Positions 1-9,940 of a stretch of DNA of 13,436 nt are shown in pieces. Under the pieces are notes generated by a model. The model made no database searches and had not been told where the DNA came from. It worked only from the letters and a program-made list of their open reading frames with translations. Each line of letters starts with the position of its first letter. Position 1 is the stretch's first letter. The DNA comes from a virus (lineage: Duplodnaviria; Heunggongvirae; Uroviricota; Caudoviricetes). Position numbers and translations under genes: made by a program. Where the stretch lies: IMG/VR virus record IMGVR_UViG_2802429224_000007, positions 1-13,436 of that record. One strand, written 5' to 3'.

Positions 1-192
<192 letters not shown>

Positions 193-6366: not shown

Positions 6367-7107
6367 ATGCTTCATTGGGTTTGTACAAAATGTCAGTCTA
6401 AAAATTCTACGAAGGAATCAGTGTGTCCTGCGTGTGGAACTTCTTTTTGGTCGACGCAGAAAAAAGAAAGGAGAGGGTGTTTATTGTTGGTTGTAATGCT
6501 CTTCGTTGTGTTTTGGGTTATTGGGCAATTATCCGGAAACGAATCCGATTCACAGGTAAATAATATTCCATCGAAAGATCATATTAGCGATGAACTTGCT
6601 TTATCTGGAGTAGACAAGGCGAAACCGTATTCTTTTGTGCGTTATGACGACATAAGTTATGCGGGACGAAAGAGATTTAAGGTTTTTATAGTGTCGCCTG
6701 AATCTCAAGATTTAGAATCAAGAGTTTCGACAGCAAGGGCTGCGGCTATTGAGTGGCAGAAAGAAAAGAGAGCTGACTTTGTGTCTGTGTTGCTTCTACC
6801 TACGGAAAATTCGGAAGGTAGTTATCTATTGACAATGGCTGATTATTCTCCTGATGGTTGCGGAACTGGTGCCGTATGTGACAATAAAAAATGGGCTATA
6901 TCATCTAGTGATGTAATATTAACAAAATCACAACTTCAATCCATATCTTTGTGGAATGAATATAAGAAAAAGTTTGCGGGTAATGATGGGGTTTTGGATT
7001 TAAAGGAAGAAAAGAAATTGAAGCAGTTTATTAGTAAGCAGCTAAATATTCCTGTTAAGGATGTATTTGCTCCAAGAGTCTTGCCTTTAAAGGAAATCGT
7101 AGATTAA
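6367..7107 (+). CDS. Hypothetical membrane protein with N-terminal zinc ribbon (CxxC-x13-CxxC), one transmembrane helix and a ~190-aa C-terminal (likely periplasmic) domain
   Basis: 246-aa ORF: CTKCQSKNSTKESVCPACG, then hydrophobic segment CLLLVVMLFVVFWVIGQL, then a K/E/S-rich domain. Markedly AT-rich compared with the flanking core genes, consistent with horizontal acquisition. SD ggag about 8 nt upstream of ATG. Confidence 0.6.
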   Translation: MLHWVCTKCQSKNSTKESVCPACGTSFWSTQKKERRGCLLLVVMLFVVFWVIGQLSGNESDSQVNNIPSKDHISDELALSGVDKAKPYSFVRYDDISYAGRKRFKVFIVSPESQDLESRVSTARAAAIEWQKEKRADFVSVLLLPTENSEGSYLLTMADYSPDGCGTGAVCDNKKWAISSSDVILTKSQLQSISLWNEYKKKFAGNDGVLDLKEEKKLKQFISKQLNIPVKDVFAPRVLPLKEIVD

Positions 7108-7272
7108 CAAGATAGATGGGGCCAAACTGGTATTATTGCAACCCTCACTTGTGAGGGTGCAAAAAACCGTAGTTTTTGCGCTGCGGGTTTCTGCTTTGGG
7201 ATGATAGGGTGCCTTATCGACCTTAACCCTGGCAACCGATTGACGGGGGATTGCTCCCCCGTCGCGGTTTCC

Positions 7273-7413
7273 TTACTGTTTACACTGTAAGAACGCCGCA
7301 AACTCCGCTCCCCAGAAGCTCATCCGTATTTCACACAGCGAGCCGTGCAGCATCCAGATGATGAGGATTGCCGTCACGCAGAACGTGATGACCGTAAGCG
7401 ATTTTTGCGACAT
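7273..7413 (-). CDS. hok: Hok/Gef-family type I toxin (small membrane-depolarising peptide), 46 aa
   Basis: Manual translation of the minus strand gives MSQKSLTVITFCVTAILIIWMLHGSLCEIRMSFWGAEFAAFLQCKQ. It has the family hallmarks: N-terminal transmembrane helix, SLCE(I/L) motif and C-terminal E(F/L)AAFL.CK (compare HokA ...SLCELHIKQESYELAAFLACKLKE). Strong SD aaggag 8 nt upstream of ATG 7413. Not in the ORF track because it is under 60 aa. Confidence 0.82.
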   Translation of the reverse strand: MSQKSLTVITFCVTAILIIWMLHGSLCEIRMSFWGAEFAAFLQCKQ

Positions 7414-7513
7414 AGCGCTTGCTCCTTTTTCGGGGAGGCGCTAACCTATCACTTGCTAAGGGTAGATGGTTAGGGCCTCGGTTAAACAAAAATGTTTTCC
7501 GGGGCCTTTCCAC
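7331..7513 (-). CDS. Mok-like overlapping reading frame (putative translational coupler for hok)
   Basis: 60-codon ORF in a different frame, starting about 100 nt upstream of hok (GTG 7513) and ending inside hok, as expected for mok in hok/sok loci. Basic, low-complexity product. Could also be a chance ORF. Confidence 0.3.
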   Translation of the reverse strand: MERPRKTFLFNRGPNHLPLASDRLAPPRKRSKRYVAKIAYGHHVLRDGNPHHLDAARLAV

Positions 7514-7599
7514 ATCCGGCCTTCAGGTATTCCCTCCAGCCATCAGCCGAAAGGCACCCGCGCGAATTCTAGCTTGGTTTTTTCCCTTGTTTCAATCCG

Positions 7600-7699
7600 T
7601 TGAGGCCTCTCAGCCTTCTGATATAAAATTCCCGACCGCAGACATTATTCAGTCACGCATTTGATACATGCTTCCGCCGGCGTTCGCGCCGGTTTTTTT
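7600..7699 (+). ncRNA. Candidate ~65-nt small RNA: sigma70-like promoter (TTGAGG -35 at 7600-7605; extended -10 TGaTATAAA at 7619-7627) plus strong intrinsic terminator
   Basis: Promoter-like elements with a 16-nt spacer. The terminator (feature below) is about 50-65 nt downstream of the predicted transcription start. No ORF between them. Located on the strand opposite to hok/mok, upstream of mok, so it could be a Sok-like antisense RNA if the hok leader extends this far. Confidence 0.4.
7676..7699 (+). terminator. Rho-independent terminator (GC-rich stem ccggcg-ttcg-cgccgg followed by T7)
   Basis: Perfect 6-bp GC stem with a 4-nt loop, immediately followed by ttttttt. Terminator-competent on the plus strand only. 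Confidence 0.75.
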
Positions 7700-8081
7700 C
7701 GTCCTGTTGCTGCGTAGATCGTCATGTGCGATCGAGGCGCGGTATTGATCCTTTTTTCAGTTTAATTCTGACTCTTGATTTTGCGCAGGCCGCGCTGCGT
7801 CTGGCTTCTTTGTTTGAGGGTTGTTTAACGCGATCCTTTTCGCGATCGTGTCTTGTCCCACGTAAAGTATGAAAACTCTTTTAATATCAGCCTGTTTTCT
7901 TTCTCCTGCCATTCATGAGATCGTAAAAATCCCTCTGAAAACTGCAAAAAATTTCAAAGCGTGAAATTTCAGATCTTCGCTTTTCCCTCAGTTGCTGCGC
8001 GGGCTGGCGGTCATTTTTGCACGGCAGAAAACTGAAAAACTGTTTCGACACAAAACCCGCGGGTTGGAGGGGGTAGCGCGG

Positions 8082-8124
8082 TTTACGTCACCTCACGCTT
8101 TACGTCACACCGTTTACGTGGTGT
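8082..8124. repeat. Three direct repeats of TTTACGTCAC / TTTACGTG (starts 8082, 8099, 8113), the last embedded in a palindrome cacacc-gtttacgt-ggtgtg
   Basis: Direct repeats spaced 17 and 14 bp apart inside an ORF-free region downstream of the phage-like operon. Resembles iteron or arm-type binding-site arrays. Confidence 0.45.
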
Positions 8125-8242
8125 GCGCATACAGCGCCGGAATGGCACGCAGAACGCATTAATCAGGTGGCAGATATGAAAACGCACGGCCTGAACCGTG
8201 CGTTGCGTGATGGGGCGTTTATGTGGATTTTATGCCCGGTGA

Positions 8243-9940
8243 TCAGGCGATAAGGTCGCCGTATTTTTCGCGCAGGCTCGTAGCCTGTTGGGCGTCTGCG
8301 GCAAGTTCGCTGCTGTTTGTTGGTGCGCCAGTGTTGCTGTGGGTGTGGTTTGCAGTGTGTGTGGCCAGCAACTGAACCAGATCCAGAATATCAATCAACA
8401 ACGTCAGCAGATTAAGTCCGGATTTTTCCCGTGAGCCACCGCGCCCAATAAATACAGTCGGGGCGGTAAATTCCAGGCCGCCGTCCGCCCGGCATGTTCT
8501 GCGGCCTCCCACGTTTTCGGTGAGGTTATGCTCGATAGTGGATGTCGCCCCTTTGAGTTTAGTCAGCAAATCCTGCGCTACCATCTGGATATGCTCACCG
8601 GCTGCGATCGCATAATGGCCAGTAGTAATGTGTTCTGTCTGACCTGTCATCAGCTTGCTGGTTCCCAGAACGCTGGTTATGTCGTTTGCCTGTACTGTTG
8701 TTGTTCTGGTTGTTGTTGTGCGTTCTTCCTGATCGCTGTTAATGGTTCGCCTGGCTGAATGCTCCCTGATTTGCTGGTCGGTTTCTCTGTGCCAGCTTCC
8801 GTCAGTCGTGACACGCTGAAACACTTCTGCGCGCTGTTGTTGCAATTGTTCGCCGGGTTTTACATCAGGCAGGTTATGACCAGCGGGTAAGATTTGCCTG
8901 ATAACAGGCTTATCCGGGCGTCCTTCAATGTTGGATATTTCCACGATGGTGCCTGCTGGCGGGTAGGCAAAACATCCCGCCTCACTGCCAGCCATGGGGA
9001 CGGGGAGTGGTACTGCCGGGTAAACAGGCGTATCGTTTTTATCGTTGCCGTTCTCATCAAGCAACTGCACATCGACGGCGTAGCGTGGGCGGAAGCTGTC
9101 GGCCACATCGCCCAGGGTGACGGATTCCGTTGGGGCAATGACGCGCGCCAGCCTGGTATGTAGAGTACCGCTGGCCAGTTCCGGGAACTGTGTTTCCATC
9201 TGTCTGCGCAATGGTGATTTGGAGACAGGGCTGCCCGTGACGGTAAGGCGCTCCCATGTCAGGGTCATTTTCTCGTTGTTGAGGGCTACGCGGGTAATGC
9301 GTCCGGCGGGAAGATTCACGCCCGGTCGCACAGTTTCCATAAACATGATGTCGATGCTGTTTCCGCCGCTTTGCCCGAGTGTGTACTGTTGCGGAATATC
9401 CGGCATTGTAATACTGGCAAATCGTGAATCAGCTGCGCTTCCCACAAATACAGAACCGTCCGGCATAGGGTGCCAGACGTAATCGCTGATACTGAATGCT
9501 CGCCCCAGTTGGCTGAGCAGTTGTGCTCCGCTGCCGCTGTGGGTGATGTAGGGAGTTGGTATACTGGCATAATCCGCATCCGGAGTGATAAAAACGATAC
9601 CGCTTTGTCGCCCCAGATTATCGAGTACCCCCCGCAACGTCGGGTGTTGCATGGAGCAAGGGAAATCAAAATCCAGCACAGCAGCCGCTTCACGAATAAA
9701 AAGGCGACGTGAGCCATTTTCAGCAGGTTGATCGCGCTCAATGTAGCCGGAGAAATAGCGCCATGCTTCACCGTCACGGCCGAGATCAATTTGTACCATT
9801 GCGCCGGCAAGGCTGTGTTCGGGTGACAGATTGTTAACAGAAATGAAGCCACGACCGGCAGCATTCAGGGTAAGAACAAGGCTTATATCGGCAATTTCCA
9901 CCCGTTCGCCATTAATCATGCAGCGTTGTATCAATTTCAT
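8243..9940 (-). CDS. Phage structural protein, putative baseplate hub / central spike or fiber-tip protein (C-terminal HxH metal-binding apex-like motif)
   Basis: 565-aa ORF and last gene of the operon. ATGA overlap with the upstream gene stop; SD gaggaagg upstream. C-terminus ...LLATHTANHTHSNTGAPTNSS resembles the HxH apex motifs of trimeric spikes and fibers (P2 gpV C-terminus HTHKHPGDSGGTTG; lambda Stf HxH repeats). N-terminal region loosely resembles gpD/gp27-like hub proteins. Recalled from memory, no search run. Confidence 0.4.
   Translation of the reverse strand: MKLIQRCMINGERVEIADISLVLTLNAAGRGFISVNNLSPEHSLAGAMVQIDLGRDGEAWRYFSGYIERDQPAENGSRRLFIREAAAVLDFDFPCSMQHPTLRGVLDNLGRQSGIVFITPDADYASIPTPYITHSGSGAQLLSQLGRAFSISDYVWHPMPDGSVFVGSAADSRFASITMPDIPQQYTLGQSGGNSIDIMFMETVRPGVNLPAGRITRVALNNEKMTLTWERLTVTGSPVSKSPLRRQMETQFPELASGTLHTRLARVIAPTESVTLGDVADSFRPRYAVDVQLLDENGNDKNDTPVYPAVPLPVPMAGSEAGCFAYPPAGTIVEISNIEGRPDKPVIRQILPAGHNLPDVKPGEQLQQQRAEVFQRVTTDGSWHRETDQQIREHSARRTINSDQEERTTTTRTTTVQANDITSVLGTSKLMTGQTEHITTGHYAIAAGEHIQMVAQDLLTKLKGATSTIEHNLTENVGGRRTCRADGGLEFTAPTVFIGRGGSREKSGLNLLTLLIDILDLVQLLATHTANHTHSNTGAPTNSSELAADAQQATSLREKYGDLIA

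What the first reader, a model, noticed from the sequence alone, without database searches (positions are those of the whole stretch)
7600..7699. Candidate ~65-nt small RNA with promoter and strong terminator, antisense to the hok upstream region
An extended -10 element (TGaTATAAA) with a -35-like TTGAGG precedes, by about 50-65 nt, a near-ideal intrinsic terminator (ccggcg-ttcg-cgccgg plus T7). No ORF lies between them. Size and orientation match a Sok-like antitoxin RNA, although it lies farther from the hok start than in canonical hok/sok loci; it could be an independent sRNA.
Basis: seen in the sequence. Interest (0 to 1): 0.5.

Follow-up and report, generated by a model that had tools for sequence, protein, structure and literature searches.

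The report
Promoter–terminator RNA unit beside hok
A compact promoter-plus-terminator unit that could make a ~65-nt RNA lies next to, but does not overlap, a hok/sok toxin–antitoxin cassette at the accessory end of a P2-family prophage of E. coli; it is not the Sok antitoxin and is at best an unvalidated prophage small-RNA candidate.

Summary
The sequence features are real. There is a -35 TTGAGG (7600-7605), a TG-extended -10 (7619-7629) and a strong intrinsic terminator (7676-7699) on the + strand. The Sok reading fails. By homology the hok mRNA starts at 7559, from a TTGAAA-18-TAGAAT promoter at 7595..7566, so the candidate lies wholly upstream of it and diverges from it. The real Sok is predicted at about 7453-7515. 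The candidate has no unusual complementarity to hok mRNA or to Sok.

The window holds the accessory end of a P2-family prophage. The order is a D/Vgr-like tail gene, a conserved non-coding region that is probably cos, this unit, a mobile hok cassette, then variable cargo. The unit occurs only in this prophage family, in 41 of 5,426 E. coli genomes.

A divergent relative has the same architecture: an identical -10, an identical terminator stem and a T-run, around an unrelated body. Other relatives lack the body and terminator, and one lineage has lost the -10.

Best reading: an accessory, moron-type non-coding transcription unit, a candidate small RNA with unknown target (0.45). The main rival is a terminator that insulates the cos and tail region from + strand transcription (0.3). 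No expression data exist. Modest interest.

The parts
7600..7605 (+). -35-like hexamer TTGAGG of the candidate promoter. It sits back-to-back with the hok -35, 4 bp away.
   Evidence: TTG is invariant in all 26 type A alleles. The variants are TTGAGA, TTGGGG and TTGACT.
7619..7629 (+). TG-extended -10 region TGaTATAAAAT. It can be read as TATAAA (7622-7627) or as TAAAAT (7624-7629).
   Evidence: TAAAAT is nearly invariant in 22 type A alleles (pi 0.015), while the spacer is the most variable stretch of the whole intergenic region (pi 0.168). It is identical in the divergent type C unit of L033. It is lost in the 'group 3' lineage.
7635..7699 (+). Predicted ~65-nt non-coding RNA. It has a weakly structured ~40-nt 5' part followed by a terminator hairpin and a U7 tail.
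   Evidence: Fold of -17.1 kcal/mol, z = -1.8. No Rfam family matches. The transcript is inferred only; there are no expression data.
7676..7699 (+). Intrinsic terminator: GCCGGCG-TTCG-CGCCGGT followed by T7.
   Evidence: It is present in every type A allele and in type C, which has an identical stem and a different loop. On the minus strand no U-run follows the hairpin, so it acts in one direction only.
7566..7595 (-). hok promoter TTGAAA-18-TAGAAT (context, not part of the candidate).
   Evidence: 10/12 match. It lies 7 nt upstream of the modelled hok mRNA 5' end at 7559.
7200..7559 (-). hok mRNA (context). It holds the tac 5' end at 7559..7551, a mok-like frame at 7513..7331, the hok CDS at 7413..7273, a 3' stem-loop at 7264..7241 and the fbi at 7215..7207.
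   Evidence: RefSeq annotates the homologous gene as a Hok/Gef family protein. The mobile cassette shared with about 1,750 E. coli genomes spans 7203-7583.
7453..7515 (+). Predicted genuine Sok antitoxin RNA. Its promoter is TTGCTC (7419-7424), a 17-nt spacer, then TAACCT (7442-7447).
   Evidence: Read from the sequence. The fold is a 5' tail plus a long hairpin, -24.7 kcal/mol, z = -3.8. It overlaps the mok start, as Sok should. It lies inside the RF01794 hit.
7718..8242 (.). Conserved non-coding phage backbone next to the unit. It holds a GATC cluster and TTTACGT repeats and is the probable cos/packaging region (context).
   Evidence: The assignment rests on analogy with the HP1 layout cosL-attP-int.

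Best explanation
The unit is an accessory, self-contained non-coding transcription unit, a 'non-coding moron'. It lies in the cargo region of a P2-family prophage, between the probable cos region and a mobile hok/sok cassette.

Proposed mechanism:
- A sigma-70 promoter (-35 TTGAGG, -10 TAAAAT with an upstream TG) fires divergently from the hok promoter.
- Transcription starts near 7634-7635.
- It ends after about 65 nt at a strong Rho-independent terminator with a U7 tail.
- The product would be a small RNA with a largely unstructured ~40-nt 5' part and an Hfq-type 3' end.
- It would act in trans on a target that is still unknown.

It is not the antitoxin of the neighbouring hok.

Shown here: the signals, their position relative to hok and sok, their distribution, and their conservation pattern. 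Inferred: that the promoter fires, that the RNA accumulates, and that it has any target.
For: 1. A consensus-like promoter and a strong terminator lie in the same orientation about 47 nt apart, with no ORF between them.
2. Among 22 closely related alleles the -10 is almost invariant (pi 0.015), while the 18-nt spacer is the most variable stretch of the 1-kb intergenic region (pi 0.168).
3. In the most divergent type A allele (L077, the same contig as L034), 14 of 15 substitutions within 7600-7699 fall outside the -35, -10, stem and T-run (Fisher P = 0.018, a post hoc test).
4. A relative whose tail gene is 86% identical (L033) carries the same architecture at the same place: TTGAAT-17-TAAAAT, a 51-nt body, then GCCGGCG-TATTA-CGCCGGT and T8. 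The -10 is 6/6 identical and the stem 14/14 identical. Its body aligns to the window's body no better than shuffled sequence (P = 0.30).
5. The unit shows presence/absence polymorphism among related prophages, as morons do. Morons are defined as independent transcription units with their own promoter and terminator (PMC3594210).
6. The 3' end, a GC hairpin plus at least 7 U, is the generic form of enterobacterial Hfq-binding small RNAs. The L033 version gives weak sub-threshold hits to RseX and OmrA-B through that feature.
Against: 1. There is no expression evidence of any kind, and nothing on this sequence in the literature.
2. The promoter motif on its own is not above chance.
3. One established lineage has lost the -10 yet keeps the body and terminator at 98-100% identity. 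This is 'group 3', the raiA-integrated prophages L003, L004, L009 and L010.
4. Type B relatives (L028, L049) keep a promoter-like TTGAAC-16-TATGAT but have no body or terminator.
5. The transcribed body is the part that is not conserved between types A and C. A trans-acting small RNA with a conserved seed would show the opposite pattern.
6. No target was found among hok mRNA, Sok or the 48 translation-initiation regions of the prophage.
7. There is no covariation in the stem. Changes are few. Two in L045 keep pairing, and two others (one in L009, one in L023/L057) break an outer pair.
Confidence: 0.45

Rival explanations
1. The functional element is the terminator, acting as an insulator. It would stop + strand transcription coming from the cargo side from running across the GATC-rich, probable cos region and then antisense into the late tail operon. 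Sources of that transcription would be read-through of Sok, whose own U-tract is only UUUCC, cargo genes such as the + strand DUF4875 gene, or the divergent promoter itself. The ~65-nt RNA would be a by-product with no function of its own.
For: The terminator is the most widely retained element. It is present in every type A allele, including the promoter-less group 3, and in type C with an identical stem. The RNA body is not conserved between types A and C. All 8 terminator-like sites in 6500-9000 are on the + strand, the direction that would be antisense to the tail genes. The Sok hairpin is followed by only three U. In phiCTX a moron next to cos is likewise closed off by annotated terminators.
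Against: Type B prophages (L028, L049) and hok-less relatives (L025, L042) exist without this terminator. In canonical P2-like prophages the same hok cassette abuts ogr, only 23 nt from the end of the cassette homology, with no such terminator. Sok read-through is therefore tolerated there. This reading does not explain why a near-consensus -10 is kept 47 nt upstream in types A and C.
Confidence: 0.3
2. The unit has no function. It would be a chance or relic arrangement at a mosaic junction between the hok cassette (up to about 7583) and the phage backbone (from about 7718). It might be the 3' end and terminator of a lost gene next to an AT-rich stretch that happens to resemble a promoter.
For: The promoter motif is not above chance on its own. 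The unit lies exactly between two independently mobile modules. It is dispensable, since types B and the hok-less relatives lack it. Group 3 has lost the -10. The reading frame 7419-7664 stops 12 nt before the hairpin, as a gene's 3' end would. All type A copies are closely related, so part of their identity is simply shared ancestry.
Against: The type C unit repeats the same promoter-body-terminator architecture around an unrelated body while its flanks are 75-96% identical. The -10 is nearly invariant beside a hypervariable spacer. No homologue of a parent gene was found in E. coli genomes, plasmids or phages.
Confidence: 0.2
3. The RNA is an antitoxin for the adjacent hok. It would act either like Sok, as a cis-antisense RNA, or like the divergently encoded type I antitoxins IstR-1, OhsC and OrzO, which pair in trans with the toxin's 5' UTR.
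For: Its size, its strand (the same as Sok) and its position immediately upstream of and divergent from a type I toxin gene fit such a role. In the E. coli genome collection it always co-occurs with this hok cassette, 41 of 41 genomes.
Against: It does not overlap the hok mRNA, whose 5' end is at 7559. The longest Watson-Crick complementary run to hok mRNA is 8 nt for type A (P = 0.24) and 7 nt for type C (P = 0.69). From my own knowledge, the divergent antitoxins use about 18-21 nt. Duplex energy with hok mRNA or Sok is no better than for shuffles. A complete canonical Sok is already present at about 7453-7515. Type B prophages carry hok without the unit.
Confidence: 0.03

Closest known systems
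Sok antitoxin RNA of hok/sok (plasmid R1 parB; Rfam RF01794)
   Same: It is a short RNA of about 60-70 nt with its own promoter and a terminator hairpin. It lies next to hok, on the strand opposite hok.
   Different: It lies entirely upstream of the hok transcription start. It has no overlap with and no complementarity to hok mRNA, and it does not match RF01794. The locus already has its own Sok at about 7453-7515.
Divergently encoded type I antitoxins (IstR-1/tisB, OhsC/shoB, OrzO/zorO). This comparison is from my own knowledge and was not checked in a paper here.
   Same: It is a small RNA gene placed head-to-head with a type I toxin gene without overlapping it.
   Different: Those RNAs carry an 18-21-nt stretch complementary to the toxin's 5' UTR. 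Here the longest complementary run is 7-8 nt, which is at chance level, in both type A and type C units.
Prophage-encoded small-RNA morons of E. coli: Esr41 (RF02676), AgvB and AsxR, PasA-D, STnc100 (bioRxiv 10.64898/2026.05.13.724894)
   Same: It sits in the accessory region of a prophage, is an autonomous promoter-terminator unit with a U-rich 3' end, has a patchy distribution and diverges quickly between strains. Sok is often found in the neighbourhood of such small RNAs.
   Different: It has no sequence or structure match to any of these families. Its host element is a P2-family prophage and not a lambdoid or Stx phage. Expression and targets have not been demonstrated.
The ctx moron of Pseudomonas phage phiCTX (AB008550)
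   Same: It is an accessory unit with its own annotated -35 and -10 and its own terminators, inserted directly beside cos in a P2-family phage.
   Different: ctx encodes a protein toxin. The unit here has no ORF, and its position next to cos is inferred, not mapped.

Membership tests
Sok (cis-antisense antitoxin of hok/sok) | Encoded antisense to, and overlapping, the hok mRNA leader and the mok translation-initiation region | tested here: not met
   The hok mRNA 5' end is modelled at 7559 and its promoter at 7595..7566. The candidate spans 7600-7699.
Sok (cis-antisense antitoxin of hok/sok) | Extended complementarity to hok mRNA | tested here: not met
   Duplex energy is no better than for shuffles (P = 0.45). 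The longest Watson-Crick run is 8 nt (P = 0.24).
Sok (cis-antisense antitoxin of hok/sok) | Match to the Rfam hok/sok model RF01794 | tested here: not met
   The only hit is at 7400-7559, scoring 43.3 bits against a gathering threshold of 59. Nothing matches at 7590-7715 even at E <= 10.
Sok (cis-antisense antitoxin of hok/sok) | An RNA of about 60-70 nt with its own promoter and a terminal hairpin | tested here: met
   The architecture alone fits. It is generic to many small RNAs.
Divergent trans-encoded type I antitoxins (IstR-1, OhsC, OrzO type) | About 18-21 nt of complementarity to the toxin's 5' UTR | tested here: not met
   for both type A and type C. The defining length is from my own knowledge.
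Phage moron (independent accessory transcription unit) | Its own promoter and its own terminator flanking the insert | tested here: met
   Consensus-type signals are present in types A and C. The definition is from PMC3594210. The activity of the signals was not tested.
Phage moron (independent accessory transcription unit) | Present in some and absent from other closely related phages | tested here: met
   Types A, B and C and the hok-less relatives show this.
Phage moron (independent accessory transcription unit) | Expressed from the repressed prophage | not testable with these tools
   No transcriptome data are accessible.
Hfq-dependent trans-acting small RNA (general class) | A Rho-independent terminator with a long U-tail, preceded by an accessible region | tested here: met
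   A 7-bp GC-rich hairpin plus U7, with a 5' 40 nt that is mostly unpaired in the minimum-free-energy fold.
Hfq-dependent trans-acting small RNA (general class) | A conserved seed and identifiable mRNA target(s); Hfq binding | tested here: inconclusive
   The body is not conserved between types A and C. No target was found among the prophage translation-initiation regions. Host-wide targets and Hfq binding cannot be tested here.
Known prophage small-RNA families (Esr41, AgvB, AsxR, STnc100, DicF, IpeX and others in Rfam 15) | Covariance-model match at or near the gathering score | tested here: not met
   Only hits driven by the terminator appear, far below threshold.

The most novel reading that the evidence does not exclude
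The unit is a swappable small-RNA slot. It would be a fixed promoter and terminator frame next to the cos and hok region of HP1-layout P2-family prophages, into which unrelated ~45-50-nt RNA bodies have been exchanged between lineages (type A versus type C). Each lineage would then carry its own regulator, acting either on host mRNAs or on competing phages.
Probability: 0.15. Interest if true: 0.55.

Novelty: new member of a known kind. Interest (0 to 1): 0.3.

Why it matters
If the RNA is made, it would add a small-RNA moron to P2-family prophages. Accessory small RNAs are much less charted there than in lambdoid and Stx phages. It would also give an example in which the promoter and terminator are conserved while the RNA body is replaced.

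In practice, the result corrects a likely mis-annotation. The antitoxin of this hok lies at about 7453-7515, not at 7600-7699. The work also defines the boundaries of a very widespread 381-bp hok/sok cassette.

If the unit is only a terminator, or a relic, it is ordinary.

Tried and rejected
- **Sok or IstR-like antitoxin:** rejected on position and on lack of complementarity.
- **Known RNA family:** Rfam at gathering threshold and at E <= 10 gave nothing for the unit.
- **Esr41 (a recollection of mine):** it is in Rfam as RF02676 and does not match.
- **Homology outside this prophage family:** none in the phage or plasmid collections. In E. coli genomes the unit is confined to the 41 genomes that carry this prophage family. 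The type C unit has no match in E. coli genomes. A pattern scan of IMG/VR for the terminator returned only this prophage family.
- **Degenerate second hok/sok copy:** there is no second RF01794 hit.
- **Bidirectional terminator for the late operon:** on the minus strand no U-run follows the hairpin.
- **Small protein:** the only ATG ORF (7668-7748, 26 aa) has no Shine-Dalgarno sequence, crosses the terminator and is absent from type C.
- **Targets inside the prophage:** the best duplex with the 48 translation-initiation regions is matched or beaten in 76% of shuffles.
- **More distant relatives:** searches anchored on the D-like tail protein in GTDB genomes, IMG/VR and metagenomes gave only 3, 24 and 9 loci. 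The comparative depth is therefore shallow and no covariation test was possible.
- **Literature search for the sequence:** no papers.

Full report
**1. Observation**

The + strand carries four elements:
- TTGAGG at 7600-7605.
- TGaTATAAAAT at 7619-7629. This reads as TATAAA with a 16-nt spacer and an upstream TG, or as TAAAAT with an 18-nt spacer. The scan tool scores the second version 9/12.
- The hairpin GCCGGCG-TTCG-CGCCGGT at 7676-7693.
- T7 at 7693-7699.

The hairpin folds at -12.9 kcal/mol. A 64-65-nt transcript folds into a weakly structured 5' part plus this hairpin (-17.1 kcal/mol, z about -1.8). On the minus strand no U-run follows the hairpin, so it acts in one direction only.

The promoter motif alone is not above chance: 2 sites against 3.5 +/- 1.9 in shuffles. 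Terminator-like sites are enriched, 8 against 3.3 +/- 1.5, and all are on the + strand.

**2. Where hok and Sok really are**

- hok is the 46-codon ORF at 7413..7273 on the minus strand. RefSeq annotates its homologue as a Hok/Gef family protein.
- The Rfam hok/sok model RF01794 aligns over its full length to 7559..7400 on the minus strand (43.3 bits, E = 4e-8, below the gathering score of 59). Model position 1 falls at 7559.
- A TTGAAA-18-TAGAAT promoter (10/12) lies at 7595..7566 on the minus strand and ends 7 nt upstream of 7559.
- The first nine bases of that transcript, GGGUGCCUU (7559..7551), are exactly complementary to AAGGCACCC (7215..7207). This is the 5'/3' tac-fbi pairing that characterises hok mRNAs (read; mechanism as reviewed in PMC9841398).

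The hok mRNA therefore spans about 7559..7200. The candidate at 7600-7699 is upstream of it and divergent from it, with no overlap.

The genuine Sok is predicted on the + strand. Its promoter is TTGCTC (7419-7424), a 17-nt spacer and TAACCT (7442-7447). The RNA runs from about 7453 to 7515, with a single-stranded 5' tail and a long hairpin (-24.7 kcal/mol, z = -3.8). It overlaps the start of the mok-like frame at 7513.

The candidate has no special complementarity to hok mRNA or to Sok. Duplex energies are no better than for shuffles. The longest Watson-Crick run is 8 nt (P = 0.24). This excludes both a Sok-like role and an IstR/OhsC/OrzO-like role. The length that those divergent antitoxins use is from my own knowledge.

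**3. Genomic context**

The window is E. coli chromosome (mnmC, fabB, yfcJ, flk; a REP/naRNA4 element at 63-141) joined to one end of a prophage. A complete copy in strain STEC719 shows it to be a P2-family phage. It carries an integrase, the C repressor and Cox, a replication endonuclease, ogr, portal and terminase genes, GPO scaffold, a P2-type capsid, gpM, tail genes and tail fibres.

Its layout is HP1-like. The integrase is at one end. At the other end are the last tail gene (a 565-aa D/Vgr-like protein, 9940..8243), then 1.1 kb of non-coding DNA, then cargo. In HP1 the corresponding interval holds cosL, attP and int.

Copies sit at four chromosomal sites: flk/pdxB, raiA, copA and serS. 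The cargo beyond hok differs between them: DUF4875, a Com/Mom-like methyltransferase, a TM2 protein, a serine acetyltransferase, or TagO-like genes.

**4. Modules**

- **hok/sok cassette.** Homology to about 1,750 of 5,426 E. coli genomes covers only 7203-7583. That is the mobile hok/sok cassette. In canonical P2-like prophages it lies directly after ogr, with no intervening unit.
- **Phage backbone.** The stretch from about 7718 to 8242 is phage backbone. Part of it (7831-8088) is about 70% identical in Edwardsiella prophages that have no hok.
- **The unit.** The interval 7584-7717, which holds the candidate, occurs in only 41 E. coli genomes, always in this prophage and always next to hok. 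It has no match in the phage or plasmid collections. A pattern scan of IMG/VR for the terminator returned this prophage family only.

**5. Comparative anatomy**

Four configurations were found between the hok promoter and the backbone.

| Type | Where found | Promoter | Body and terminator |
|---|---|---|---|
| A | The window and most relatives | Consensus-like | Both present |
| A, group 3 | raiA-integrated lineage (L003, L004, L009, L010 and others) | -35 is TTGACT; the -10 position reads TGCATA and no promoter is called | 98-100% identical to the other type A copies |
| B | L028, L049 | Promoter-like TTGAAC-16-TATGAT | Absent; the promoter-like site runs straight into the backbone |
| C | L033, D-like protein 86% identical | TTGAAT-17-TAAAAT | 51-nt body, then GCCGGCG-TATTA-CGCCGGT and T8 |

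Between types A and C the -10 is 6/6 identical, and the stem (14/14) and the T-run are identical. The spacer and the body align no better than shuffled sequence (P = 0.30 for each). The flanking hok cassette and backbone are 75-96% identical over the same comparison.

Within 22 type A alleles, excluding group 3, nucleotide diversity differs sharply by segment:

| Segment | Diversity (pi) |
|---|---|
| Promoter spacer | 0.168 (the highest in the intergenic region) |
| -10 hexamer | 0.015 |
| Body | 0.051 |
| Terminator | 0.050 |

In the most divergent type A allele (L077), 14 of 15 changes in 7600-7699 avoid the -35, -10, stem and T-run (Fisher P = 0.018, post hoc). Stem changes are few. Two in L045 preserve pairing, and one each in L009 and L023/L057 breaks an outer pair. 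There is no true covariation.

**6. Interpretation**

The conservation pattern points to selection on the transcription signals and not on the RNA sequence. The presence/absence polymorphism marks the unit as accessory. An independent transcription unit with its own promoter and terminator, patchily distributed among related phages, is the definition of a moron (PMC3594210). This one has no ORF.

I rank the explanations as follows.
- **Non-coding moron, 0.45.** It would yield a ~65-nt RNA with an Hfq-type 3' end and an unknown target. Group 3 and type B would be decayed or rearranged alleles.
- **Insulating terminator, 0.30.** It would protect the probable cos region and the tail operon from + strand transcription. 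That transcription would include read-through from Sok, whose U-tract is only UUUCC. The terminator is the element retained most widely, which favours this reading. The existence of type B, and of canonical P2-like phages where hok abuts ogr, argues that such insulation is not required.
- **Non-functional junction relic, 0.20.**
- **Antitoxin of hok, 0.03.**

No target emerged among the prophage's 48 translation-initiation regions. Host-wide target prediction and any test of expression are outside these tools.

**7. Comparison with known systems and novelty**

The unit works, if at all, like the prophage small-RNA morons known from lambdoid and Stx phages: Esr41, AgvB, AsxR and PasA-D. It matches none of their Rfam models. 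Weak hits of the L033 unit to RseX and OmrA-B (20-23 bits against thresholds of 40-50) reflect only the generic AU-rich tail plus terminator.

It resembles Sok in size and neighbourhood but fails every defining test for Sok. The phiCTX ctx moron shows that P2-family phages do accept promoter-terminator units beside cos.

Verdict: a new, unvalidated member of a known kind. Interest is modest (0.3).

Noticed in passing
window 7717-7975: A cluster of 7 GATC (Dam) sites in 281 bp, against 0.71 expected at the window-wide rate (Poisson P about 1e-5). GATC sites are also present in the homologous Edwardsiella region. This suggests a Dam- or SeqA-sensitive site, for example one involved in packaging.
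   Followed up: partly
window 7936-8170 (repeats at 8082, 8099 and 8113): This is the most conserved part of the intergenic region (pi 0.028). It holds three direct TTTACGT(C/G) repeats and a G-rich stretch, GGTTGGAGGGGGTAGCGCGG. The adjoining stretch 7831-8088 is about 70% identical in Edwardsiella prophages. By analogy with the HP1 layout (last tail gene, cos, attP, int) it is probably the cos/packaging site. It is not annotated in any genome examined.
   Followed up: partly
window 7203-7583: [quoted passage not shown] In canonical P2-like prophages it lies immediately after ogr, for example next to leuZ or ihfA.
   Followed up: yes
window 7419-7515 (+): The genuine Sok antitoxin gene is predicted here and is not annotated. 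Its promoter is TTGCTC-17-TAACCT. The ~60-nt RNA has a long hairpin followed by only UUUCC. It overlaps the start of the mok-like frame (7513..7331).
   Followed up: partly
window 7606-7623: The 18-nt spacer of the candidate promoter is hypervariable: 9 of 18 positions vary among alleles whose flanks are 98-100% identical. The haplotypes do not track those of the hok leader. The cause is unexplained and could be a recombination junction.
   Followed up: partly
window 6500-9000: All 8 terminator-like sites found by the scan are on the + strand and none are on the strand of the tail operon. A weak minus-strand candidate for the late-operon terminator lies at 8205..8180 (AACGCACGG-TTCAGG-CCGTGCGTT, then TTCATATC). 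L033 has a clean terminator at the equivalent place.
   Followed up: no
window 7167-7186, and L003 7571-7598, L049 6209-6237: A palindromic, bidirectional terminator-like hairpin (AAACCCGCAG...CTGCGGGTTT in relatives) lies just beyond the 3' end of the hok cassette. It may mark the cassette boundary or close off the neighbouring cargo gene.
   Followed up: no
window 6367-7107 and homologous loci L003-L010: The slot between hok and the prophage end holds different cargo in different strains: DUF4875, a Com/Mom-like DNA methyltransferase, a TM2-domain protein, a serine acetyltransferase, or TagO-like and zinc-ribbon genes. The same prophage family is integrated at flk/pdxB, raiA, copA and serS.
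   Followed up: partly
window 63-141: A REP element matches Rfam naRNA4 (RF02564) at 74.8 bits. It lies in the host chromosome downstream of mnmC.
   Followed up: no
L014 6417-6270 (Edwardsiella anguillarum, minus strand of the locus): At the equivalent position, between the att-proximal TGGCAGCA repeats and the GATC-rich backbone, there is a promoter-like TTGCCA-18-TACTAT. About 100 nt downstream lies a weak hairpin, GGCGA-ATCTA-TCGCC, followed by TTTCGCTATTCT. This may be an analogous unit in a prophage that has no hok.
   Followed up: no
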